DNA from: an uncultured Candidatus Berkelbacteria bacterium
GTDB taxonomy: Bacteria > Patescibacteriota > UBA1384 > UBA12157 > JAENIV01
Assembly (NCBI GenBank): GCA_963698075.1
Contig: OY969116.1
Span: 189,492-253,491 of the forward strand
Reading direction: 5' to 3'
DNA: 64,000 bases
Shown: positions 1 through 9,611 of the stretch, piece by piece
Layout: the number at the start of each line of letters is the position of its first letter
Position numbering within the stretch: the first letter of the stretch is position 1
Program-made: the position numbers and the translations under genes
The notes under the pieces: model-generated
Seen by the model: only the letters and a program-made list of their open reading frames with translations
Database searches by the model: none
What the model was told of the DNA's origin: nothing

Positions 1-174
1 CATAATGCTGGCATGGTGAAATCTACTAAGAATCGACGACCATTTATACTTGTTTATTCTGAAAAATTTGATAATAAAAAAGCTGCATTTAAAAGAGAGT
101 GGCATCTTAAACATCCAAAGGGTTACTTAGAAAAACTAAAGATCATAAAAAGCATGGGCCCATAGCTCAGCTGG
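1..174 (+). CDS. 3' end of a small GIY-YIG superfamily (YhbQ/UPF0213-like) gene, partial at window edge
   Basis: In-frame translation ...GMVKSTKNRRPFILVYSEKFDNKKAAFKREWHLKHPKGYLEKLKII* resembles the C-terminal half of short GIY-YIG proteins. The stop codon overlaps the start of the tRNA. Confidence 0.4.
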
Positions 175-229
175 TTAGAGCGTATGCATGGCATGCATAA
201 GGTCGCCGGTTCGATCCCGGCTGGGTCCA
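156..229 (+). tRNA. tRNA-Ala (anticodon GGC)
   Basis: Manual cloverleaf: 7-bp acceptor stem GGGCCCA/TGGGTCC with a G3:U70 pair (the Ala identity element). D-arm is GCTC/GAGC. Anticodon stem TATGC/GCATA with loop ATGGCAT gives U33-GGC-A37. T-arm is GCCGG-TTCGATC-CCGGC. Discriminator is A; CCA is not encoded. Confidence 0.85.
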
Positions 230-244
230 AAATAATATTATATT

Positions 245-306
245 AGTAATGGTAGAGCGGTCGCCTTGGCGACAGGTCCGGGGTTCGAATCCCCGTCGGT
301 CCACCA
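245..306 (+). pseudogene. tRNA-like 3' fragment (T-arm, acceptor 3' strand and ACCA; 5' half and anticodon loop aberrant)
   Basis: GGTAGAGCGG...CGGGG-TTCGAAT-CCCCG-TCGGTCC-A-CCA has a canonical T-arm and 3' end. No complementary 5' acceptor or D-stem strand exists upstream. The anticodon arm GTCGC-CTTG-GCGAC has only a 4-nt loop. It lies 15 nt after tRNA-Ala. Confidence 0.4.
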
Positions 307-318
307 CAGTGAATAATT

Positions 319-627
319 ATGAAAATAAAAGATCTTGGGATTTTGCCAAAATATTTCTCTTTGGTAGAAAGCTTCAAGGATTTTGAACCATTTGGTCCGC
401 TATCTTGGGCTGATTGGATTTTAGAAAATATTGATAATGGAAAGTTGTTATTGAAAGTAAGGTTGGATTTAGATTCGGACTACAGAGGAAAAACCAGAGA
501 AATTGATTTGAATAAGAGAAAGAAATATATGGATTTAAGTCCAGAAGGAAAAAGACAGTTACTTGAAATTTTATCAAGCAATGTCGGCAAAAGCATTGAA
601 GAAATTTTTGATTTAGAATTAAAATAG
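319..627 (+). CDS. hypothetical protein (102 aa)
   Basis: ORF with native AT-rich codon usage; no recognisable motif. Confidence 0.45.
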   Translation: MKIKDLGILPKYFSLVESFKDFEPFGPLSWADWILENIDNGKLLLKVRLDLDSDYRGKTREIDLNKRKKYMDLSPEGKRQLLEILSSNVGKSIEEIFDLELK

Positions 628-659
628 AAGAAAAAGTCAAGGAAGCCAAAAAGGGAAGA

Positions 660-1130
660 ATGGATAAAGAGTTTACTTTTACTGAATCGGATTTACAAAA
701 AACTAACGATAAATTAATAGCCAATATTTTTCTGTACGGGCTACCATTTTTGATTTATGCAATTGTAGAACTTATTAAAAATGGTTACTCTGTTGAAAGT
801 CTAATTGTTCTTTTGGGATCAATATTTTCAACAATTGGATCTTTAACTTACGCAGTCTCAATCCAGATTTACGGAGCGAGAAACAAAAAAAGTTGGTGGG
901 CTCTCCTATTAGTGCCGTTAGGATTTATACCCTACATATTTGGATGTTACCTTTGCTTTTATATGGGCTTTTGGAAACTAATAAAACTATTTTCTAATTT
1001 TTCATTTTGGGGATTAGTACTTTCTCTTGCTTCGATTATCTTTGGATACCTAATAGTTCGGACAATTTGGAAAATTTCAGAGATCGGGAGAGCTATCAGT
1101 GATAAAAGAATTAAAATTACAAATAATTAA
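660..1130 (+). CDS. hypothetical membrane protein (about 4 TM)
   Basis: Four long hydrophobic segments; 32 nt after the previous ORF. Confidence 0.5.
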   Translation: MDKEFTFTESDLQKTNDKLIANIFLYGLPFLIYAIVELIKNGYSVESLIVLLGSIFSTIGSLTYAVSIQIYGARNKKSWWALLLVPLGFIPYIFGCYLCFYMGFWKLIKLFSNFSFWGLVLSLASIIFGYLIVRTIWKISEIGRAISDKRIKITNN

Positions 1131-1296
1131 AAAATCTCTTGGAAAAATGCCGGAAAAATTACAAGAGTTTATTAAAGAAGGGAAAAAACTGACCGAAGAA
1201 ATAGATCAGTTTATTAAGAAGTGCAAATTAATATCTTAAAAGGGCAGGTCTAATATGCCATATGAGTTTCAATAGAGGAGTTAATAAAATAATATT

Positions 1297-1803
1297 ATGA
1301 CAATGATAATAGCAACATTTGTTATAGCAATTTCTTTCGTCGTATTTTTTTACCTGTTCGCTAATATTTTTGTTCCGCTACTATTTGATATCCCAGCAAC
1401 AACAAAACTTGGGCGAAAAAATATCATCAAACAGAAACCTGTATTAAAAAAATATATTATAACCATATTAGCGTGTAGTATAGTTGCATCTATAATTTTG
1501 GCACTTGCCTACTATTTTTTTATTAAATATTCGTTTGGTTTTTCCATAAGCCTATTTATTGGAGCTTGCCTAGCACTTTTGATATCTTTATGGAAAATGG
1601 TTTGGTTATTTTCCCGTTACTCGGACAACTATTTAAAATGGTTAGATTTTTACAGAAAAGATAACTCGCGTTACTTAGAGACAGCCGATATGGGTATTAT
1701 TGATGAAGCGTTAGGTGGAAAATCAGGAGAATTGGAAAAACAAACGAATAAAAAGATTGATAAAATGTTTAATAAAAAATACGGAAACCAGAATAAGGAA
1801 TAA
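1297..1803 (+). CDS. hypothetical membrane protein (about 4 TM plus charged C-terminal tail)
   Basis: Hydrophobic N-terminal 100 aa and Lys-rich tail. First gene of a tightly spaced five-gene block. Confidence 0.5.
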   Translation: MTMIIATFVIAISFVVFFYLFANIFVPLLFDIPATTKLGRKNIIKQKPVLKKYIITILACSIVASIILALAYYFFIKYSFGFSISLFIGACLALLISLWKMVWLFSRYSDNYLKWLDFYRKDNSRYLETADMGIIDEALGGKSGELEKQTNKKIDKMFNKKYGNQNKE

Positions 1804-1820
1804 GTTATTTAAGGATTTAT

Positions 1821-2534
1821 ATGAAAATATTTAATTGGCTTTCAAGCAAAAAAGACCGACAAACTTCAAGCGGTGGCAATATTACTGCCAAAAAGGTTTT
1901 AGATTTTGCTACAACATACGAGGAACTAAAACCATATTTTGCTCTCTTTGTGTATTATTTTAAGTCTGTATTGGACAGCGAAAAAGAAATTGAACAGAAA
2001 GTAAGAGAAATTCAGACCAAGACACAGCAAAATCTAAAAGAAGACCAATTATTTAAGGAATTATGGATATTACGATATGTTTGTTTATTTGTATGGTTTT
2101 TTGATCTTAAACCACCAAAAAATAAAACGGAACTTTCTGATGAGCTTTTGGTTATCAATAGCGCACTCAAAAGTGTTCTGAAAGAAAATAATAAGTTGGA
2201 CTACCTGCCTTGGCTTAAAAATGGATTGTCCGAATTTGCTGACGGAGAATTAACTTTTAATAACCTAAAAGGTTTTAGGAAAAACTTTTCAGACAAATTG
2301 GCGGACAAGATTCCGCATATTGCGTTTGATTGCACAGAAGGTAGATTGGGCGGTGAATTACACGATTTTGTTATTGAGTTGGTTATGACAACAATCCAAG
2401 AAGATCAGAAAGTTTTTAGTATGAGTGATGAAAATACTTTGACAGAGGAAGAAGCTCAAAATATCAAAAGTGCAATTATGGAAATGAGCGAAGATAGACA
2501 CAAAACGGCAGAAGATTTTATGAATTCTCTCTAA
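1821..2534 (+). CDS. hypothetical protein (237 aa)
   Basis: ORF 17 nt after the previous gene; no recognisable motif. Confidence 0.5.
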   Translation: MKIFNWLSSKKDRQTSSGGNITAKKVLDFATTYEELKPYFALFVYYFKSVLDSEKEIEQKVREIQTKTQQNLKEDQLFKELWILRYVCLFVWFFDLKPPKNKTELSDELLVINSALKSVLKENNKLDYLPWLKNGLSEFADGELTFNNLKGFRKNFSDKLADKIPHIAFDCTEGRLGGELHDFVIELVMTTIQEDQKVFSMSDENTLTEEEAQNIKSAIMEMSEDRHKTAEDFMNSL

Positions 2535-2557
2535 AAATTTATCTCAAAGAGCAAAAT

Positions 2558-3040
2558 ATGACTGATTTGGAATTACAAAAACGAGATTTACTTATGGAAA
2601 CACAAAGATGTTCTGAACTTTTTAATTCTCAAGTTTTTGCCCAACATCAAATTTTTACCCAGTCCGCTTTTATTGAGATTTTGGTTCGCTTGAATTATAC
2701 CCTTCAAGAGTTAGACAAAAAGAATAACAGAATAGTTTGGACGGACGATATTCAAACCGACCAAAATATCAAAGATATTACAGATTTAGTAAATAATTTA
2801 CGAAATGCCGCTTGCCACAGCGACAGCCCAAGAAATTATATCAGCAACTCAAGTATAAAATTTGTTTTTAATACTTTTGCCGGAAAGTGTCCGAATGCAG
2901 TTAAAATTGGAGAAAATATTTCGTTAGGCAACGAATATCAAGATGACATCGCTTTTTATTACGGAGACAAAAGAATCTACCTTGTGAGGCACATTAAAAG
3001 GTTGTTGGAAGAATTGCCTAACGAAATTAACAAGTTATAA
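2558..3040 (+). CDS. HEPN-like protein (R-x4-H motif), putative RNase/toxin-type domain
   Basis: Motif LVNNLRNAACHSD is R-N-x-x-x-H, the HEPN R-x4-6-H signature. Size (160 aa) is typical for HEPN. Confidence 0.4.
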   Translation: MTDLELQKRDLLMETQRCSELFNSQVFAQHQIFTQSAFIEILVRLNYTLQELDKKNNRIVWTDDIQTDQNIKDITDLVNNLRNAACHSDSPRNYISNSSIKFVFNTFAGKCPNAVKIGENISLGNEYQDDIAFYYGDKRIYLVRHIKRLLEELPNEINKL

Positions 3041-3107
3041 TAAATTAGGCGGCGCGCCAGTTTCACTGGCACAAAATTCGGTAATTTGGTAAAATTAAAC
3101 CACTTAT

Positions 3108-3476
3108 ATGGAAAATTGGACGCTCACTTGGACAAAACTTGCCGAGCTTAAAGAAAGTGAAGTTAATGAGCTCTCGGGAGGCATGACAGGAGTATATAGA
3201 CTGTCTTATAGATCCGAAGACGGAAATTTTTATGTCTTCTATGTCGGGCAGGCTGATGACATTAAAAGTCGTCTTTTAGAACATATTTCAGCCGCGGAAA
3301 AGAATGTATGCATAAAAAATTATATTGATAAAAAAAGTTGTTTTTTTAGATATGCCATAGTGACCAAAGATTATATCCGAGACGCAGCCGAACGACAAAT
3401 GTTTAAGCAATACGAACCAGAGTGCAACGACAAAGAACCGTATGGAAGAGATGACATAATACTAAATCTATCATAA
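3108..3476 (+). CDS. GIY-YIG domain nuclease-like protein
   Basis: GVYRLSY...YVFYVGQADDIKSRLLEH...E matches the GIY...YIG...R...E catalytic motif spacing. Confidence 0.6.
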   Translation: MENWTLTWTKLAELKESEVNELSGGMTGVYRLSYRSEDGNFYVFYVGQADDIKSRLLEHISAAEKNVCIKNYIDKKSCFFRYAIVTKDYIRDAAERQMFKQYEPECNDKEPYGRDDIILNLS

Positions 3477-3480
3477 AAAT

Positions 3481-4080
3481 ATGACTCTTACTATTTGTAT
3501 TATTGCTAAAGATGGTTTAGTGCTTGCTTCCGATAGCCGTGCAAGCTCTTTTCTGACGAGTAATGACACAGTTAAAAAAATTTTTAAATTAGATGACCAT
3601 AACGCTGTTGGAATTGCTGGAGATGGGCCTTTAGCGATGCACTTTTTCGACCTAATCTCCAAGGAATTAAATTTTAAAAATGGTATTTCATCATTAGCTG
3701 AGCAATTGAGGACCTTCGGCAAATCCAAATTTGATGAATTTTTTTCTCACCAAAGTCCTAAAGATCGCCCATTATTAAGCATTATTCTCGCTGGATATAG
3801 TCTTAGTGACAAGCCTGATATATATGTACTTAACAGCAACGATAATTTTGTTCCAAGAAAAAATCCAACTGGTTTCGAATGCGTGGGTATTCCGATTATT
3901 GCTAACTATTTACTTAACCGACTCTATGAGTCAGATATTACAACTGATCATGCTGCAGAACTTGCGACATTTTGTATAAGAGAAACGAGTTCTCAAGATA
4001 ATCGTGTTGGTGGTCCAACACAGATTGCGACTTTTTTCCAATACAAAAGAATATGCGGAATTATCAGTAGAAGATATTAG
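3481..4080 (+). CDS. HslV/proteasome beta-subunit-like Ntn-hydrolase peptidase (no HslU partner nearby)
   Basis: MTLTICIIAKDGLVLASDSRASS has Thr directly after Met1 and the D-S-R-A-S motif. GIAGDG is the GxGxG-like strand. The C-terminal half is collinear with proteasome beta/HslV. Confidence 0.6.
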   Translation: MTLTICIIAKDGLVLASDSRASSFLTSNDTVKKIFKLDDHNAVGIAGDGPLAMHFFDLISKELNFKNGISSLAEQLRTFGKSKFDEFFSHQSPKDRPLLSIILAGYSLSDKPDIYVLNSNDNFVPRKNPTGFECVGIPIIANYLLNRLYESDITTDHAAELATFCIRETSSQDNRVGGPTQIATFFQYKRICGIISRRY

Positions 4081-4224
4081 AAAAATTGAAAATAAATGTG
4101 ACCAATTCCGGTTATTACAAAAGGGCAATTTTTATCCTGAGGATAGCTCTGCAGGTTCTACAATATCAAAAGACGCAACTCCGTCCAGCCCAGGTACACA
4201 AAAGGCAAAAAAGGGGCTTAAACA

Positions 4225-4310
4225 TGGAAAAATACGATCCACAACAAATTGAAGCCAAGTGGCCCCACTTCGCTAAAGCTACGTGGGGTAAACTCCAGAT
4301 TTGGAAATAA
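4225..4310 (+). pseudogene. leuS 5'-end-like remnant (MEKYDPQQIEAKW...)
   Basis: MEKYDPQQIEAKWPHF... mirrors the canonical LeuS N-terminus and the real start MENYDFKSIENKW at 4320. It ends after 28 codons. Confidence 0.3.
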
Positions 4311-4319
4311 AGTAATAAA

Positions 4320-6721
4320 ATGGAAAACTACGACTTTAAATCTATCGAAAATAAGTGGCAAGAACGTTGGGAAAAATCTGGCGCTCATCAGGCAATCGAA
4401 CGTCCAAATGTTCCTAAGTTCTATTGCCTCGATTTCTTCCCCTATCCATCAGGCGAGGGCCTTCATGTCGGTCACTGGCGCGGCTATGTTTTATCTGACA
4501 TTATTTCTCGCTACCAAAAATTAAAGGGCAAAAATATCCTTCATCCAATGGGCTACGATGCCTTTGGTTTACCCGCAGAAAACGCCGCCATCAAAGCCAA
4601 TTCCCATCCTCAAATCTTTACCAATAAGGCCATCAAGCGTTTTCAAAAACAACTACGACAAATTGGCGCGATGTATGATTGGAATCGCGAAATTAATAGC
4701 TCTGATCCCCAATATTATCGCTGGACCCAATCGATATTTTTAAAGTTACACCAAGCCGGGTTTGGCTTATCGTCAAAAAGCGCCGGTTAATTGGTGCCCG
4801 GCCTGCCAGACTGTTTTAGCTAATGAGCAAGTCGTGGCCGGTGAATGTGAACGTTGTGGTGCCAAGACAATCAAAAAAGAACTCACCCAATGGTTTTTTC
4901 GCATCACAAAATATGCCGAAAAACTACTGAACAACTTAGATCAACTCGACTGGCCAGAAAGGACAAAAACTCTCCAGCGCAATTGGATCGGTAAATCTGA
5001 AGGGGCGATGATTAAATTCAAAATTCATGATTCACAATTTAAAGTTGATGTTTTTACCACCCGGCCAGACACTTTATTTGGCGCTACCTTTATGGTTTTG
5101 GCGCCAGAACACCCGATTGTTCAGCAAATCACTACCCCGGAAAATATTGGCGCTGTCCAAGACTATATTGAGAAAACACGTCAGGAATCAGAGCTTTTCC
5201 GCGAAACCGTTGAACGCGAAAAAACCGGAGTTTTTACCGGTGCCTATGCTATCAACCCTGTAAACAACGCCAAGATACCAATCTGGATTGCCGACTATTG
5301 TTTAATTCACTACGGCTCCGGCGCTGTTATGTGTGTCCCTGGTCACGACCGTCGTGATTTCGAATTTGCCAAAAAATTTGCATTACCCGTCGTTCAAGTA
5401 ATATCGCCAGATGGCAAAGTCAACGAGAAACTTCTGCCATATATTGAGTCGGGTTTCAATCTTAATTCGGGACAATACAACGGCCAAAAATCCGAAGACG
5501 CCAAACAGAAAATCACCGAAGATTTAAAAAAGAAGGGTTTGGCGGATTTTGCCACCAAATTCCGACTCCGTGATTGGTTGATTTCCCGGCAGCGTTATTG
5601 GGGGGCGCCGATTCCGATTATTTATTGTCAAAAATGCGGCGAAGTCCCCGTCCCGGAAAAAGAGCTTCCGGTCTTACTTCCAGAGGACGTTGAATTTAAA
5701 CCTAAAGGCGAATCGCCATTAAAACAATCAAAGAAATTTCTTAATACGACTCTGTCCGAAATGTGGCGGTAAAGCTACGCGGGAGACCGACACGATGGAT
5801 ACTTTTGTTGATTCCTCTTGGTATTTTTTACGGTTTACTGATCCAAAAAACAATAAAGAATTTGCCAGCCAAAAAGCCATCAATGTTTGGATGCCGGTTG
5901 ATCTTTATGTTGGCGGAATTGAACACGCCACCATGCACTTACTCTACGCCCGTTTTGTTACTTTGGCGCTTCACGATACTCGGGATTGTAAATTTTGATA
6001 AATTATGGTGAACCTTTCAAAAAACTTTTCAATATCGGTTTGATTTATCTTCACGGCGCCAAAATGTCAAAATCCCGTGGCAACATTGTTACCCCTGATG
6101 AGCTGGTCGCCAAATACGGTTCAGATGCCCTCAGGGGCTACGAAATGTTTGTCGGACCAGCAGATCAAGATAGCGAATGGCAAGTTTCAGGAATCACCGG
6201 TATTTATCGATTCTTAGAGAAAGTCTGGCGGTTTTTCTCACTTCAGGGCACAAAGGAAACATCAATTCAGAATAAACAAATAATCCATCGTCTGATCAGA
6301 AAAATTACTGAAGGATATTGAAAATTTCAGATTCAATACGGCTATTGCCATGCTGATGGAATCTTTTAACGATCTCGATGGAAATATTTCCACCGAGAAC
6401 CTTAAGACATTGGCAATTCTTATCTCACCATTCTTCCCCCACCTTGCCGAGGAAATTTGGGAAAAATTAGGTCAGTCAGAGTCTATTTTTACCGAAAGAT
6501 GGCCCAAGTATGATGCCGAATACCTGAAACTTAAAAAAATCAAAATCGCAATCCAGGTCAATGGTAAATTGCGAGATGTCATCGAGATTGATGTCGGTTT
6601 AAGTCAAAAAGAGGTTGAAGAAAAAGCTTTAACCGCTAAAGTTCAATTAATCATTGGTCCAAGAAAGATAGCCCGACAAATTTACGTTCCTGGAAAAATT
6701 GTCAATTTTGTGCTAGAATAA
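4320..6721 (+). pseudogene. leuS: leucyl-tRNA synthetase leuS, broken by at least 5 single-nucleotide frameshifts
   Basis: Fragments together carry the HVGH-like P-SGEGLHVGHW motif, VNWCPACQT, the CPKCGG zinc knuckle and KMSKS (AKMSKSRGN). Frame changes lie near 4770 (extra T in GGGTTT), 5770 (extra C), about 5990-6000 (two shifts) and 6316 (extra G). Confidence 0.85.
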
Positions 6722-6739
6722 ATTATTAAGGAGCAAAGT

Positions 6740-6918
6740 ATGGCCGAACCAAAAAAGAGATTAACAAGCACCCGATCAGGCAAAAGACGAAGCCAAATAA
6801 TTTCTAAAAACGAAAAATTTATCTATTTGTCCAAAATGTAAAAATCCTGCATCTACCACACCGAGTATGCCCTAATTGTGGGTTTTATAAAGGCAAAGAC
6901 ATACTTAAAATTAGCTGA
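6740..6918 (+). pseudogene. rpmF: ribosomal protein L32 rpmF, two internal frameshifts
   Basis: MAEPKKRLTSTRSGKRRSQ... then ...ICPKCKNPA... then ...PHRVCPNCGFYKGKDILKIS* are spread over three frames. Confidence 0.7.
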
Positions 6919-6995
6919 TAAACAACGCGCCAAGGAAGAAGCGCCGAAAAGACGTGCCGCCGAAGAAAAAAGTAATAAGAAAAAGAGGAGTCGAA

Positions 6996-7400
6996 GTGAA
7001 CCGTCACCTTTCACGAGTGATCTCGATGCAAACACTTTACGAGTGGGATTTTCGACCGAAATCTCAAATTGAAGAAATAAAAATTCGAAACATTAACAAC
7101 TATGATGAGGGTGCTGACGACTGACTATATTGACCAAACTATTCAAGGCGTGATTGACCAATCAAAAGGAAATTGATTGGAAATTGTCAAAGCTGCGCCT
7201 GAATGGCCCATTGAACAAATCTGCGGCGATTGATAAGACAATCCTGAGAATTGCGATATATGAAATTTTAAAATCCGAAGATGTTCCGCCCAAAGTGGCC
7301 ATCAACGAAGCTGTCGAGCTTGGTAAAACCTTTCGGTGGCGAAAATTCATCAAAATTTATCAATGGTGTTTTAGGAACTGTTTATCGTCAGCTTCCCTAA
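6996..7400 (+). pseudogene. nusB: transcription antitermination factor NusB, at least 4 frameshifts
   Basis: GTG start after RBS AGAGGAG. N-terminus NRHLSRVISMQTLYEWDF, then IDKTILRIAIYEIL...DVPPKVAINEAVELGKTF, then C-terminus FINGVLGTVYRQLP*, all in different frames. Confidence 0.7.
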
Positions 7401-7443
7401 GATTACAACCCCGACGAAGATGAATATCTTAAAAAGGAGAAAA

Positions 7444-8166
7444 ATGCCCAAAACAATCAGTCAATTGAAGAATTTGCTCAAAAAATTAGTCTACAATTTT
7501 AAAAATAAAAAACTTCTCAAACAAGTTTTTGTCCATCGTTCGTACCTCAATGAAAATATCGGCTTTGATCTCGATCACAACGAACGACTGGAATTTTTGG
7601 GTGATGCCGTTTTAGAACTCGTCGTTACCGAATATTTATTTGAGAATTTTGACAATCCCGAAGGAGAACTGACTAATTTGCGCTCTGCCCTGGTTAAGGG
7701 GCCGATGCTTTCCGAAGTTGCCAAGGATTTAGGCATGGAAAAAAATCTTTATCTTTCCCGCGGCGAAGCCAAGGCCGAAGGGAAATCGCGACAACTGATT
7801 TTAGCCAATGTTTTTGAGGCCTTGATTGGCGCCATTTACTTAGATCAAGGTTACAAGGCGGCCGTCGAGTTTGTTAAAAAGAACTTGATTTGCCATCTCC
7901 AAAAGATTATTGATGAAAAGCTTTTTCTAGACCCCAAAAGCCATTTACAAGAATTATCCCAAGAACAACTCGACGTTACCCCAGTTTATAAAGTTTTAGA
8001 AGAACACGGGCCGGACCACGCTAAAAGCTTTACTGTTGGCTGTTTCGTAAATGACCGTTTAATCGGCGAAGGCTCTGGCAGTGCAAAGCAAGCGGCTGAA
8101 AGCGCTGCCGCTTCCTCGGCATTAGAACATTGGACTGAAGTTAATTCACAAAACCGTTCGCATTAA
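7444..8166 (+). CDS. rnc: ribonuclease III
   Basis: RNase III signature ERLEFLGDAVLELVVTEYL plus a C-terminal dsRBD; RBS AAAAGGAG before the ATG at 7444; intact. Confidence 0.9.
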   Translation: MPKTISQLKNLLKKLVYNFKNKKLLKQVFVHRSYLNENIGFDLDHNERLEFLGDAVLELVVTEYLFENFDNPEGELTNLRSALVKGPMLSEVAKDLGMEKNLYLSRGEAKAEGKSRQLILANVFEALIGAIYLDQGYKAAVEFVKKNLICHLQKIIDEKLFLDPKSHLQELSQEQLDVTPVYKVLEEHGPDHAKSFTVGCFVNDRLIGEGSGSAKQAAESAAASSALEHWTEVNSQNRSH

Positions 8167-8873
8167 ATAACATATTTTCTAAGTTCTAAATAGAACTCGT
8201 GGGCTTTTTTACGAAGCCCGTCTCTTTCCCGAAATTCCCATGGTAAGATGGGATCTTTTTGTAATATGAGAGCATATTGAAAGATCTGCTTTTTAGCAGT
8301 AAAACGCGGATTGGGATCTTTATCAATCACCTTGAGTATTCTTTCGGCATTAAAATTAAACCTCTTGTACTCATCCTCAATATCAGCCAGTTTCCAAGAT
8401 TTCTCAATAATTGTTTTGTCTAAAGAATTGTTGCGGCTAACTTCAAAAAACTTAAGCGTATTTTCTAAATGTAGCCGACGGCGGATCTCTTCGACTTCAT
8501 TTTTGATGTCCTTCGGTGAAATCCAAACGCTCGGTTGCAGAATTCCCAATCCTAAACGATTTAAAGCTCGACGAATACGATCGCGTAAATCCCGCTGTTT
8601 TTCCGGGACATTAAATATCACTAAACGCCAGCGACCATCCCATTTACCAGTTTCCCGCAAGTTCTTTAAAATCCGATCAAATTCCTTTTCGCCTTTTGGA
8701 GTAATTACATAATGGGTTTCGCCGCCGATTTCTTTTTTCTCTGCCCAACCGTAATTTTTAAGCTTGCTTAAAACTCCCCGAGCTTTTCTGCCCCAGCGAT
8801 TTAAACGATAAAGCGGGACTTTCTTTTCATCTTCCAACAAAATGAAAATTTCTTGCAACGGTGTCAAAGACAT
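8163..8873 (-). CDS. PaaX-family-like transcriptional regulator
   Basis: WDGRWRLVIFNVPEKQRDLRDRIRRALNRLGLGILQPSVWISP matches the PaaX-type conserved core. Confidence 0.5.
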   Translation of the reverse strand: MSLTPLQEIFILLEDEKKVPLYRLNRWGRKARGVLSKLKNYGWAEKKEIGGETHYVITPKGEKEFDRILKNLRETGKWDGRWRLVIFNVPEKQRDLRDRIRRALNRLGLGILQPSVWISPKDIKNEVEEIRRRLHLENTLKFFEVSRNNSLDKTIIEKSWKLADIEDEYKRFNFNAERILKVIDKDPNPRFTAKKQIFQYALILQKDPILPWEFRERDGLRKKAHEFYLELRKYVI

Positions 8874-8921
8874 AAATCTCCTAACAACTTACCATAGCAT
8901 CTAACCGAACGGCCGTCAAGA

Positions 8922-9611
8922 TTAGTCGCTATTTTTTGGCCAGAAAATGCGCGAGATTTCGTATGCAAGAAATAGTGCAACAAGTATGCCAATAAAAAGC
9001 ATCATTTTATTTAAGAAAGCTAAGCCGAAAAAGTAAAAAATTAAGCCCCAAAAAGTTGACCAGAAAAATTGTCCTAAAATCATCAGAATAATAAATTTTT
9101 TAAAATTAACCTTCATAATTCCTGCTGAGATGGCGATCACGGCAGCAAGATTGGGATGAACAGCTCCCCAAATGTATATCAACCAACTTTTTTCGATTCT
9201 TTGGCGCATTTTCAGAATCGATTTTTCAAGTCCATATTTTGAAAAAAACTTTGCTCCTCCAGTAAAACCAAGATAGTAATCAAGTGATAAAGCTATGATA
9301 ATCCCCAATGTCGTCCAAATAATCACCGCTGGAAGACCAATAACTTTAGCGCCGGCTAAGGTAGCTCCGAGTAAGATGATTGAAGAACCCGGAAAATATA
9401 AACCTAAAATAATAGTAGCTTCGATTATTCCCGAAATAAAAAGTATTATTATTCCATAATCTTGATAAATACCACTAATAAACGAGAGTAGTTTCCCTTG
9501 ATCGGTAAAGTAGAAGATAATTCTCAAGATTATTAAAATTATTAAGGTAATAATTAAAATTTTTCCGAGGCCATGTTTCTGTTTCATCTTACTGCCAGTT
9601 CCAATTGGCAA
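8922..9611 (-). CDS. DedA/SNARE-associated family membrane protein
   Basis: Multi-TM protein with the DedA-like motif ...LGFTGGAKFFSKYG.... Confidence 0.6.
   Translation of the reverse strand: MPIGTGSKMKQKHGLGKILIITLIILIILRIIFYFTDQGKLLSFISGIYQDYGIIILFISGIIEATIILGLYFPGSSIILLGATLAGAKVIGLPAVIIWTTLGIIIALSLDYYLGFTGGAKFFSKYGLEKSILKMRQRIEKSWLIYIWGAVHPNLAAVIAISAGIMKVNFKKFIILMILGQFFWSTFWGLIFYFFGLAFLNKMMLFIGILVALFLAYEISRIFWPKNSD

What the first reader, a model, noticed from the sequence alone, without database searches (positions are those of the whole stretch)
1297..4080. tRNA-adjacent five-gene operon: membrane protein, unknown protein, HEPN-like R-x4-H protein, GIY-YIG nuclease, orphan HslV-like protease
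Five same-strand genes are packed with gaps of 17, 23, 67 and 4 nt, directly downstream of the tRNA site. Together with two further small unknown or membrane genes at 319-1130, they separate the tRNA from leuS. The predicted activities are a membrane component, an RNase-type HEPN motif (NNLRNAACH), a DNA nuclease (GIY-YIG) and an Ntn-hydrolase peptidase lacking its usual AAA+ partner. That is the repertoire of an abortive-infection, defense or toxin module, but the combination does not match a named system I know. A second GIY-YIG gene lies just upstream of the tRNA.
Basis: partly seen in the sequence, partly recalled or inferred. Interest (0 to 1): 0.7.

Follow-up and report, generated by a model that had tools for sequence, protein, structure and literature searches.

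The report
Mosaic gene island, not one operon
The five tightly packed genes are real, but they are a patchwork of at least three independently travelling gene cassettes in a low-GC island beside a tRNA gene; one cassette is a previously undescribed, strictly conserved pair of a small GIY-YIG nuclease-type gene and a proteasome-like protease gene.

Summary
All five ORFs, the gaps, the RNAACH motif, the GIY-YIG and proteasome-family hits and the upstream GIY-YIG gene are as described. The reading as one five-gene system is not supported.

The block lies in a low-GC island (0.33 against 0.44) next to tRNA-Ala, and it breaks into separate modules:
- **Genes 3-5 (1286-3081):** 89% identical in DNA to a block in another Patescibacteria genome. 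There it sits in a tRNA-Ser island with a serine recombinase. Genes 4 and 5 also occur apart in many contexts.
- **Gene 5:** a solo ~160-aa protein with an invariant R-N-x3-H motif and a predicted helical-bundle fold. It is best read as a new HEPN-superfamily family. Several relatives lie inside restriction-modification operons.
- **Genes 6-7 (3105-~4190):** a GIY-YIG gene lies immediately upstream of the proteasome homolog in 67 of 75 metagenomic loci. The other eight contigs have too little upstream sequence to show it. None of these loci carries genes 1-5.

The window's gene 7 carries a +1 frameshift that removes its conserved C-terminal tail. The adjacent leuS has four frameshifts. Defence or toxin roles rest on neighbourhood only; no function was shown.

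The parts
1..165 (+). 3' part of a small GIY-YIG gene (runs off the window start); its stop overlaps the start of the tRNA
   Evidence: PF01541, 21.2 bits, profile positions 39-72 of 78. Similar small GIY-YIG genes precede tRNAs in L016 and L017.
155..230 (+). tRNA-Ala (GGC)
   Evidence: ARAGORN; Rfam tRNA, 65.2 bits.
243..306 (+). 5'-truncated pseudo-tRNA-Ala (UGC type), with a 3-nt deletion in the anticodon loop and an encoded CCA
   Evidence: Rfam matches only a tRNA-like 3' end, via the tmRNA model, E 0.006. 82% identical to the 3' part of tRNA-Ala(TGC) of L015. Alignment A5.
319..627 (+). gene 1, 102 aa, no family match; start of the low-GC island
660..1130 (+). gene 2, 156 aa, predicted membrane protein (about 4 hydrophobic segments)
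1286..3081 (+). three-gene block (genes 3-5) shared at 89% DNA identity with L107/L108
   Evidence: blastn: 1803 nt at 89.1%. In L107 the block lies in a low-GC island with tRNA-Ser, a large serine recombinase and an HTH gene.
1297..1803 (+). gene 3, 168 aa, predicted membrane protein
   Evidence: Hydropathy. 94% aa identity to the L107 copy. Absent from all other gene-4 and gene-5 loci.
1821..2534 (+). gene 4, 237 aa, all-helical protein of unknown function; occurs independently of the other genes
2558..3040 (+). gene 5, 160 aa, solo HEPN-type protein with R82-N83-x3-H87
3108..3476 (+). gene 6, 122 aa, minimal GIY-YIG domain; obligate upstream partner of gene 7
   Evidence: PF01541, 23.7 bits. 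Present immediately upstream of gene 7 in 67 of 75 loci. Y30, G47, E95 and N107 are at least 90% conserved.
3481..4080 (+). gene 7, proteasome-subunit-family Ntn hydrolase, truncated by a +1 frameshift in the T run at about 4033-4038
   Evidence: PF00227, E 5e-20. T2 and D18 are at least 90% conserved and K33 is invariant. Homologs are 235-237 aa and diverge from the window ORF after 'QIATF'.
4037..4190 (+). out-of-frame remainder of gene 7 (frame +2: SNTKEYAELSVEDIRKIENKCDQFRLLQKGNFYPED...)
   Evidence: tblastn of this stretch hits 66 of the 75 loci directly after gene 7. DNA similarity to the homologs ends at about 4144-4193.
4224..4310 (+). 29-codon remnant of a leuS 5' end
   Evidence: MEKYDPQQIEAKW.... 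4271-4287 resembles leuS 5767-5783 (family D12).
4320..6721 (+). leuS, interrupted by four frameshifts
   Evidence: Three-frame translation. The sites are not long homopolymers.

Best explanation
The block is part of a horizontally acquired, low-GC variable island next to tRNA-Ala. It is assembled from at least three independently mobile cassettes. It is not one system.

**Cassette A (genes 3-5).** This is cargo seen elsewhere in a tRNA-Ser island that carries a serine recombinase. Within it, gene 5 is a self-contained HEPN-superfamily protein. By inference it is a metal-independent RNase that uses R82 and H87. In other genomes it sits alone behind unrelated genes, several times inside restriction-modification operons. 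The most likely role is a suicide or back-up RNase of the kind proposed for R-M-linked HEPN proteins (PrrC-like logic). Genes 3 (membrane) and 4 (helical) have no assignable activity.

**Cassette B (genes 6-7).** This is an obligate, translationally coupled pair of a minimal GIY-YIG domain and a propeptide-free proteasome-type threonine protease. By inference it is a two-gene conflict module (toxin/regulator or abortive infection). The self-compartmentalising protease would control the amount or activation of the nuclease-type partner. In this window the pair is probably decaying, because a frameshift removes the conserved C-terminal tail of the protease.

**Shown:** the anatomy, the mosaic structure, the co-occurrence patterns and the conserved catalytic residues.
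**Inferred:** RNase, DNase and protease activities, any defence role, and the regulatory relation between genes 6 and 7.
For: **Island**
- GC is 0.329 against 0.437 elsewhere.
- A tRNA-Ala and a pseudo-tRNA-Ala lie directly upstream.

**Mosaic structure**
- DNA similarity to other genomes falls into discrete blocks: 1286-3081, 2553-3081 and 3105 to about 4190.

**Co-occurrence**
- None of 23 gene-5 genome loci has genes 3, 6 or 7.
- None of 75 gene-7 loci has genes 1-5, while 67 of 75 have gene 6 directly upstream. The other eight contigs have too little upstream sequence to show it.
- The gene 6-7 junction is an ATGA overlap or a 0-1 nt gap in 40 of 62 loci.

**Gene 5**
- The RNxxCH motif is invariant.
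- The family has 511 clusters at 50% identity.
- Predicted fold: three helices, a beta insert, then a C-terminal helix.
- The weak Pfam hits of several family members include the HEPN-clan models pEK499_p136, Apea and DUF4145.
- Relatives lie inside type I and other R-M operons.

**Genes 6-7**
- Thr1, Asp17 and Lys33 are conserved in gene 7.
- Neighbours within 4 kb in 22 loci include 10 DNA methyltransferase or type IIG R-M genes, an NgoPII endonuclease and two AbiEii genes.

**Link to a recombinase**
- L107 has tRNA-Ser, a serine recombinase, an HTH gene and genes 3-5.
Against: - No activity was tested.
- Gene 5 reaches no curated HEPN model at threshold. hhalign to the pEK499 type protein aligns only 19 motif columns, at 6% probability.
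- PADLOC recognises none of the genes as a known defence protein, apart from a partial motif hit for gene 6.
- Many neighbours of the cassettes are plain housekeeping genes: pgk/eno, rpoC/ftsK, recA. The defence association is therefore an enrichment, not a rule.
- The canonical GIY-YIG arginine (R55 here) is not conserved across the gene 6 family, so nuclease activity is uncertain.
- The window has no integrase and no convincing flanking direct repeats.
Confidence: 0.68

Rival explanations
1. A single five-gene defence or abortive-infection operon. The membrane protein, unknown protein, HEPN RNase, GIY-YIG DNase and protease would act together.
For: The genes are on one strand with gaps of 4-67 nt. 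No terminator-like site was found on the + strand between them. Each recognisable domain is of a type common in defence systems.
Against: The five-gene order recurs in none of the 98 related loci examined. Genes 6-7 never co-occur with genes 1-5, and gene 5 almost never with the others. Tight packing is normal in these compact genomes: gene 5 abuts whatever gene lies upstream. PADLOC recognises no system.
Confidence: 0.05
2. Genes 6-7 are a selfish homing-type cassette. The GIY-YIG protein would be a free-standing homing endonuclease that copies itself and its neighbour into new sites. The proteasome homolog would be cargo or a maturation factor, with no role in defence. Gene 5 could likewise be a selfish nuclease gene.
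For: The cassettes have sharp boundaries at the ORF ends. They occur between housekeeping genes, for example rpoC-ftsK and pgk-eno. Identity is high across different phyla. One gene-5 relative (P0116) is fused to a homing-endonuclease-associated repeat. GIY-YIG is a classic homing-endonuclease fold (PMC1564403, title and abstract listed).
Against: Gene 6 is only 122 aa and has no recognisable DNA-binding domain. Known free-standing GIY-YIG homing enzymes are, from my own knowledge, about twice that size. A pure hitch-hiker would not explain strict retention of an apparently active protease across 52-85% identity. No matched empty and filled target sites were compared.
Confidence: 0.15
3. The island is the decayed remnant of an integrative element that has lost its recombinase, and the genes are element-maintenance or cargo genes with no defence function. 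The frameshifts show it is on its way out.
For: The same genes 3-5 lie beside tRNA-Ser, a serine recombinase and an HTH gene in L107. A pseudo-tRNA-Ala sits at the island edge. Gene 7 and leuS are frameshifted. GC is low.
Against: This does not explain the independent distribution of gene 5 and of genes 6-7 outside such elements. It also does not explain strong purifying selection on them elsewhere. It is compatible with, rather than opposed to, the best explanation.
Confidence: 0.1

Closest known systems
HEPN superfamily, R-M-linked solo families such as pEK499_p136 (PF18736), ApeA and DUF4145 (Anantharaman et al. 2013, PMC3710099)
   Same: R-N-x3-H motif at a similar relative position (residues 82-87 of 160, against 96-101 of 166 in the pEK499 protein). 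Similar size. Similar layout: helices, motif helix, then (read from the sequence only for the pEK499 protein) a strand-rich stretch and a C-terminal helix. Stand-alone gene. Embedded in R-M operons in some genomes.
   Different: No curated HEPN model is reached. The window protein has no hit, and 5 of 41 relatives hit PF18736 only at E 9e-4 or worse. hhalign aligns just the motif helix. This is a separate family of at least 511 clusters at 50% identity.
Orphan bacterial proteasome homologs (Anbu, BPH, and the 22 families of Fuchs, Alva and Lupas 2021, PMC8665760)
   Same: Single-gene proteasome-fold Ntn hydrolase with Thr1, Asp17 and Lys33, no propeptide and no AAA+ partner. Similar scores to both alpha and beta 20S subunits, as those authors describe for WPH and group II families.
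   Different: That study reported no informative genomic context. Here the gene is always preceded by a GIY-YIG gene. Which of their families it belongs to, if any, could not be tested.
HslVU
   Same: Propeptide-free N-terminal threonine protease of the proteasome fold.
   Different: No HslV model was hit. The closest models and structures are 20S beta and alpha subunits. No HslU or other AAA+ unfoldase gene is adjacent in the window, and none is conserved near the homologs.
Type II toxin-antitoxin and Abi two-gene modules
   Same: Genes 6-7 are a small, translationally coupled, horizontally mobile gene pair, found in variable islands with R-M and AbiEii genes.
   Different: No DNA-binding antitoxin domain is present. 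A proteasome-type protease as one partner has, to my knowledge and in the papers searched, no described precedent.
tRNA-associated genomic islands of Patescibacteria (PMC12455944)
   Same: Low-GC island next to a tRNA, carrying R-M-type and other accessory genes. A serine-recombinase version exists in L107.
   Different: The window copy has no integrase and no recognisable attachment-site repeats.

Membership tests
HEPN superfamily | R-x4-6-H motif with a polar residue (N, D or H) after the R | tested here: met
   R82-N83-A-A-C86-H87. R82, N83, C86 and H87 are invariant in 41 sequences. H87 is invariant and R82 at least 90% conserved in 139 distant representatives.
HEPN superfamily | Up-and-down alpha-helical bundle core | tested here: inconclusive
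HEPN superfamily | Significant profile match to a curated HEPN family | tested here: not met
   The window protein has no Pfam, NCBIfam or PADLOC hit. Relatives hit PF18736, PF18739 and PF13643 only weakly, E 9e-4 or worse. No PDB sequence match.
HEPN superfamily | Metal-independent RNase activity | not testable with these tools
   Needs an enzyme assay with R82A and H87A controls.
pEK499_p136 HEPN family (PF18736) | Pfam gathering score (26.6 bits), or a profile-profile match over the domain | tested here: not met
   The type protein scores 168.4 bits. The window protein has no hit. hhalign of A4 against the type protein aligns 19 columns at 6% probability.
GIY-YIG nuclease superfamily (PF01541) | Pfam gathering score | tested here: met
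   23.7 bits against a cut-off of 22.6, residues 28-104.
GIY-YIG nuclease superfamily (PF01541) | Catalytic set: Tyr of GIY, Tyr and Gly of YIG, Arg in helix 1, metal-binding Glu, Asn | tested here: inconclusive
   Y30, G47, E95 and N107 are at least 90% conserved in 52 sequences. The helix-1 Arg (R55 in the window) is replaced by K, E or D in divergent members.
Proteasome subunit family (PF00227, Ntn hydrolases) | Pfam gathering score, and Thr1, Asp17, Lys33 | tested here: met
   72.4 bits against 22.4. M1-T2 and D18 are at least 90% conserved and K33 is invariant in 26 sequences.
HslV | Match to HslV models and an adjacent hslU (AAA+) gene | tested here: not met
   NCBIfam hits are archaeal and bacterial 20S beta and alpha models only, all below cut-off. 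No AAA+ gene is adjacent, and none is conserved among neighbours.
Known anti-phage systems (PADLOC-DB v2) | Component proteins match the system's models | tested here: not met
   Genes 3, 5 and 7: no hit. Gene 4: spurious 15-bit PtuA hit. Gene 6: 26 bits to PDC-S14 over the GIY-YIG motif only.
tRNA-integrated genomic island | Adjacent tRNA, deviant composition, integrase, flanking direct repeats | tested here: inconclusive
   tRNA plus pseudo-tRNA: met. GC drop of 10 points: met. Integrase: absent from the island and its flanks (window 1-9000), present with the same genes in L107. Direct repeats: none convincing.
Integron gene cassettes | attC recombination site after each ORF | tested here: not met
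   Intergenic spacers are 4-67 nt. Only one short hairpin, at 3055-3070. No repeated inverted-repeat family.

The most novel reading that the evidence does not exclude
Genes 6-7 define a new two-gene conflict system, widespread in Patescibacteria. In it, a proteasome-homolog ring protease is the dedicated partner (regulator, activator or safeguard) of a minimal GIY-YIG nuclease. This would be the first functional context for one of the orphan bacterial proteasome-homolog families, and a protease-nuclease pairing not represented in current defence catalogues.
Probability: 0.3. Interest if true: 0.75.

Novelty: new variant of a known kind. Interest (0 to 1): 0.5.

Why it matters
**Method.** A block that looks like one novel defence operon is in fact a stack of independent cassettes. 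Tight packing alone is not evidence of a system in the compact genomes of these ultra-small bacteria.

**Two leads.**
- A large, unmodelled family of solo HEPN-type proteins (at least 511 clusters at 50% identity) moves as a single gene. Several members lie within restriction-modification operons.
- A GIY-YIG gene and a proteasome homolog are strictly coupled. The 2021 survey of new proteasome homologs found no informative genomic context for any of them. An obligate partner gene therefore gives a direct experimental handle on what such an orphan protease does.

Tried and rejected
- **Phage origin.** Scans of viral contigs for genes 4, 5 and 7 found no relatives. tblastn of an intact gene 7 homolog against GenBank phages found nothing.
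- **tmRNA fragment at 268-306.** Rejected. It aligns to tRNA-Ala(TGC) and lacks the 5' half.
- **Integron cassettes.** Rejected, because the spacers are too short and there is no attC-like repeat.
- **Attachment-site repeats around the island.** None found.
- **Gene 5 versus solved structures by sequence.** Nothing.
- **The afdb50 fold library** was unavailable.
- **The source contig** (929 kb) could not be retrieved, so the region upstream of the window start was not seen.
- **Assembly error as the cause of the frameshifts.** An independent Logan contig is 100% identical over 518-4534, including the gene 7 frameshift. Ten other adjacent ORF pairs in the window are separate intact genes. The leuS frameshifts lie outside that contig and remain unverified.
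Full report
**1. The observation**

The five + strand ORFs lie at 1297-1803, 1821-2534, 2558-3040, 3108-3476 and 3481-4080, with gaps of 17, 23, 67 and 4 nt. tRNA-Ala(GGC) is at 155-230. ORFs at 319-627 and 660-1130 lie between the tRNA and the block. I call these seven ORFs genes 1-7, in order along the + strand.

Genes 2 and 3 have several hydrophobic segments. NNLRNAACH is at residues 79-87 of the 160-aa protein. Pfam gives GIY-YIG for gene 6 (23.7 bits, cut-off 22.6) and Proteasome for gene 7 (72.4 bits). The ORF ending at 165 is a partial GIY-YIG at 21.2 bits. So the description is accurate.

- The stretch 319-4080 has GC 0.329, against 0.437 for the rest of the window.
- Gene 7 is truncated by a +1 frameshift.
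- leuS (4320-6721) is broken by four frameshifts and is preceded by a 29-codon leuS 5' remnant.
- A 5'-truncated pseudo-tRNA-Ala lies at 243-306.

**2. Is it one system?**

No. I fetched loci carrying relatives of each gene and asked which of the other island genes are present.

*Gene 5.* It has more than 120 close homologs, all about 160 aa. It occurs in 23 species-representative genomes. These include several Patescibacteria phyla and also Legionella, Clostridia, Pyrinomonadaceae and Spirosoma. None of these loci has genes 3, 6 or 7, and one (L009) has gene 4. DNA similarity to the window is confined to 2553-3081, at 84-87% identity for the closest loci. The gene directly upstream is usually on the same strand and abuts gene 5, but it differs from locus to locus. 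Examples are an N6/N4 methyltransferase, HsdM, Vsr, a PsbP-like protein and an EamA transporter.

*Gene 7.* It has 230 homologs of 235-237 aa. A metagenome scan returned 75 loci. Gene 6 lies immediately upstream in 67 of them. In the other eight the contig has too little upstream sequence to show it. None contains genes 1-5. The identity range is wide: 52-85% for gene 7 and 33-69% for gene 6. The junction is an ATGA overlap or a 0-1 nt gap in 40 of 62 cases. DNA similarity runs from about 3105 to about 4144-4193.

*Gene 4.* It has 96 homologs across several Patescibacteria phyla. In L107/L108 genes 3-4-5 are together, with 89% DNA identity over window 1286-3081. Elsewhere gene 4 stands without genes 3 or 5:
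- beside a restriction-endonuclease-like gene and an IS110 transposase;
- followed by a SocA/Panacea-domain gene;
- near IS1595, PLD and GmrSD genes;
- inserted between pgk and eno.

The block is therefore at least three units: genes 3-5 (themselves separable), genes 6-7, and genes 1-2.

**3. The island**

In L107 the gene 3-5 block lies in a low-GC stretch. That stretch starts right after tRNA-Ser and carries a large serine recombinase and an HTH gene. Other copies of gene 5 and of genes 6-7 lie just downstream of tRNAs (L016, L017, L055, L086).

The window shows the same layout, with a tRNA, a pseudo-tRNA and low-GC cargo. It has no recombinase, and I found no flanking direct repeats. No relatives were found in viral contigs or GenBank phages.

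**4. Gene 5**

R82, N83, C86 and H87 are invariant in 41 sequences. H87 is invariant and R82, C86, D129, D130, G136, Y141, R144 and H145 are at least 90% conserved in 139 distant representatives. The family has 511 clusters at 50% identity with E up to 1e-3.

The AF2 model is confident (pLDDT 93.5). It has three helices, with the motif at the end of the third, then a five-strand insert and a C-terminal helix.

Structure and profile comparisons give mixed support:
- Foldseek has no significant hit, although several HEPN structures (the HepT-type toxins 6m6w, 7bxo, 6m6u and 5yep, plus 2hsb and 8xdj) are among its top-ranked, non-significant matches.
- Weak Pfam hits of several family members include pEK499_p136, Apea and DUF4145. 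The 2013 HEPN survey places all three in the HEPN superfamily and links them to R-M systems.
- The pEK499 type protein (166 aa, 168 bits to PF18736) has its RNxxxH motif at a similar relative position. Its sequence after the motif also suggests strands and a final helix. hhalign aligns only the 19 motif columns.

I conclude that gene 5 belongs to the HEPN superfamily by motif and predicted fold, as a family of its own. Membership of PF18736 is not met. One relative sits as a lone gene on a 5.8-kb mobilisable Acinetobacter plasmid. That shows the protein needs no fixed partner.

**5. Genes 6-7**

Gene 7 starts M-T, and T2, D18 and K33 are conserved. These are the Thr1/Asp17/Lys33 set of proteasome beta subunits, here without a propeptide. 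It is distant from all solved subunits (E about 1e-9) and scores alike to alpha and beta subunits. No HslV model was hit.

The 2021 survey of new proteasome homologs reports such alpha/beta-equidistant families and found no informative genomic context. I could not test which of their families this is. One of their representatives has an accession in the same series as the Lloydbacteria copies of P0229, a gene 7 homolog.

Gene 6 keeps Y30, G47, E95 and N107, but the canonical helix-1 arginine is not conserved family-wide.

Among 126 neighbouring ORFs from 22 non-redundant loci there are ten DNA methyltransferase or type IIG R-M genes, an NgoPII endonuclease and two AbiEii genes. There are also plain housekeeping genes. 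I found no paper describing this gene pair.

The window copy has T6 where the reading frame of the homologs requires T5, at about 4033-4038. The conserved tail (KCDQFRLLQKGNFYPED) is therefore out of frame. An independent Logan contig carries the same sequence.

**6. Mechanism and confidence**

The mosaic-island reading is well supported. Function is inferred.
- For gene 5, I favour a stand-alone HEPN RNase acting as a back-up or suicide effector alongside R-M systems, as proposed for R-M-linked HEPN families.
- For genes 6-7, I favour a toxin/regulator-type pair in which the ring protease controls the GIY-YIG partner.
- A homing-endonuclease reading is a serious rival, given the sharp cassette boundaries and the insertions between housekeeping genes.
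- Genes 3 and 4 remain without an assignable activity. Gene 4 is all-helical with no specific structural match.

**7. Verdict**

The interest lies in the strictly conserved GIY-YIG/proteasome-homolog pair and in the large solo HEPN-type family, not in a five-gene system.

Noticed in passing
window 4320-6721 and 4224-4310: leuS is split into five ORFs by four frameshifts that are not at long homopolymers. It is preceded by a 29-codon remnant of another leuS 5' end. Ten other adjacent ORF pairs in the window are intact separate genes. This looks like a local pseudogene next to the island, which is odd for an essential gene in a small genome unless a second copy exists.
   Followed up: partly
window 243-306: A 5'-truncated pseudo-tRNA-Ala (UGC type) with a 3-nt anticodon-loop deletion and an encoded CCA, 12 nt after the intact tRNA-Ala(GGC). 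It may be a scar of an earlier integration or deletion.
   Followed up: partly
window 1-165; L016 4597-4925; L017 9426-9863: A small YhbQ-like GIY-YIG gene ends at or overlaps the start of a tRNA gene that is followed by a gene 5 cassette. The same order occurs in three unrelated loci. This suggests a recurrent 'small GIY-YIG, tRNA, variable cargo' hotspot in Patescibacteria.
   Followed up: no
protein P0116 (Logan contig, 277 aa): A gene 5 family domain is fused to a homing-endonuclease-associated repeat (PF18780, 54 bits). This hints that some members act on or bind DNA in a selfish-element setting.
   Followed up: no
L116 6001-6726; L099 7605-8702: Single cassettes are inserted inside conserved housekeeping arrays. 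A gene 4 homolog overlaps the pgk stop codon and precedes eno. Genes 6-7 lie between rpoC and ftsK.
   Followed up: no
L112 8001-9264: A gene 4 homolog (60% identity) is followed 68 nt later by a SocA/Panacea-domain protein. From my own knowledge this domain is typical of antitoxins, which is a possible hint that gene 4 is a toxin.
   Followed up: no
window 1099-1239: A small 46-codon ORF overlaps the end of gene 2 and contains an internal 33-nt imperfect direct repeat (1143-1175 and 1185-1217). A 35-nt stretch just downstream (1266-1300) is 97% identical to L013 8749-8783, which suggests a conserved upstream element of gene 3-type cassettes.
   Followed up: no
L010-L015, L020 (genome contigs): The closest gene 5 copies (85-92% identity) mostly lie within 0.1-2 kb of a contig end. 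This fits assemblies breaking at strain-variable or repeated island sequence.
   Followed up: no
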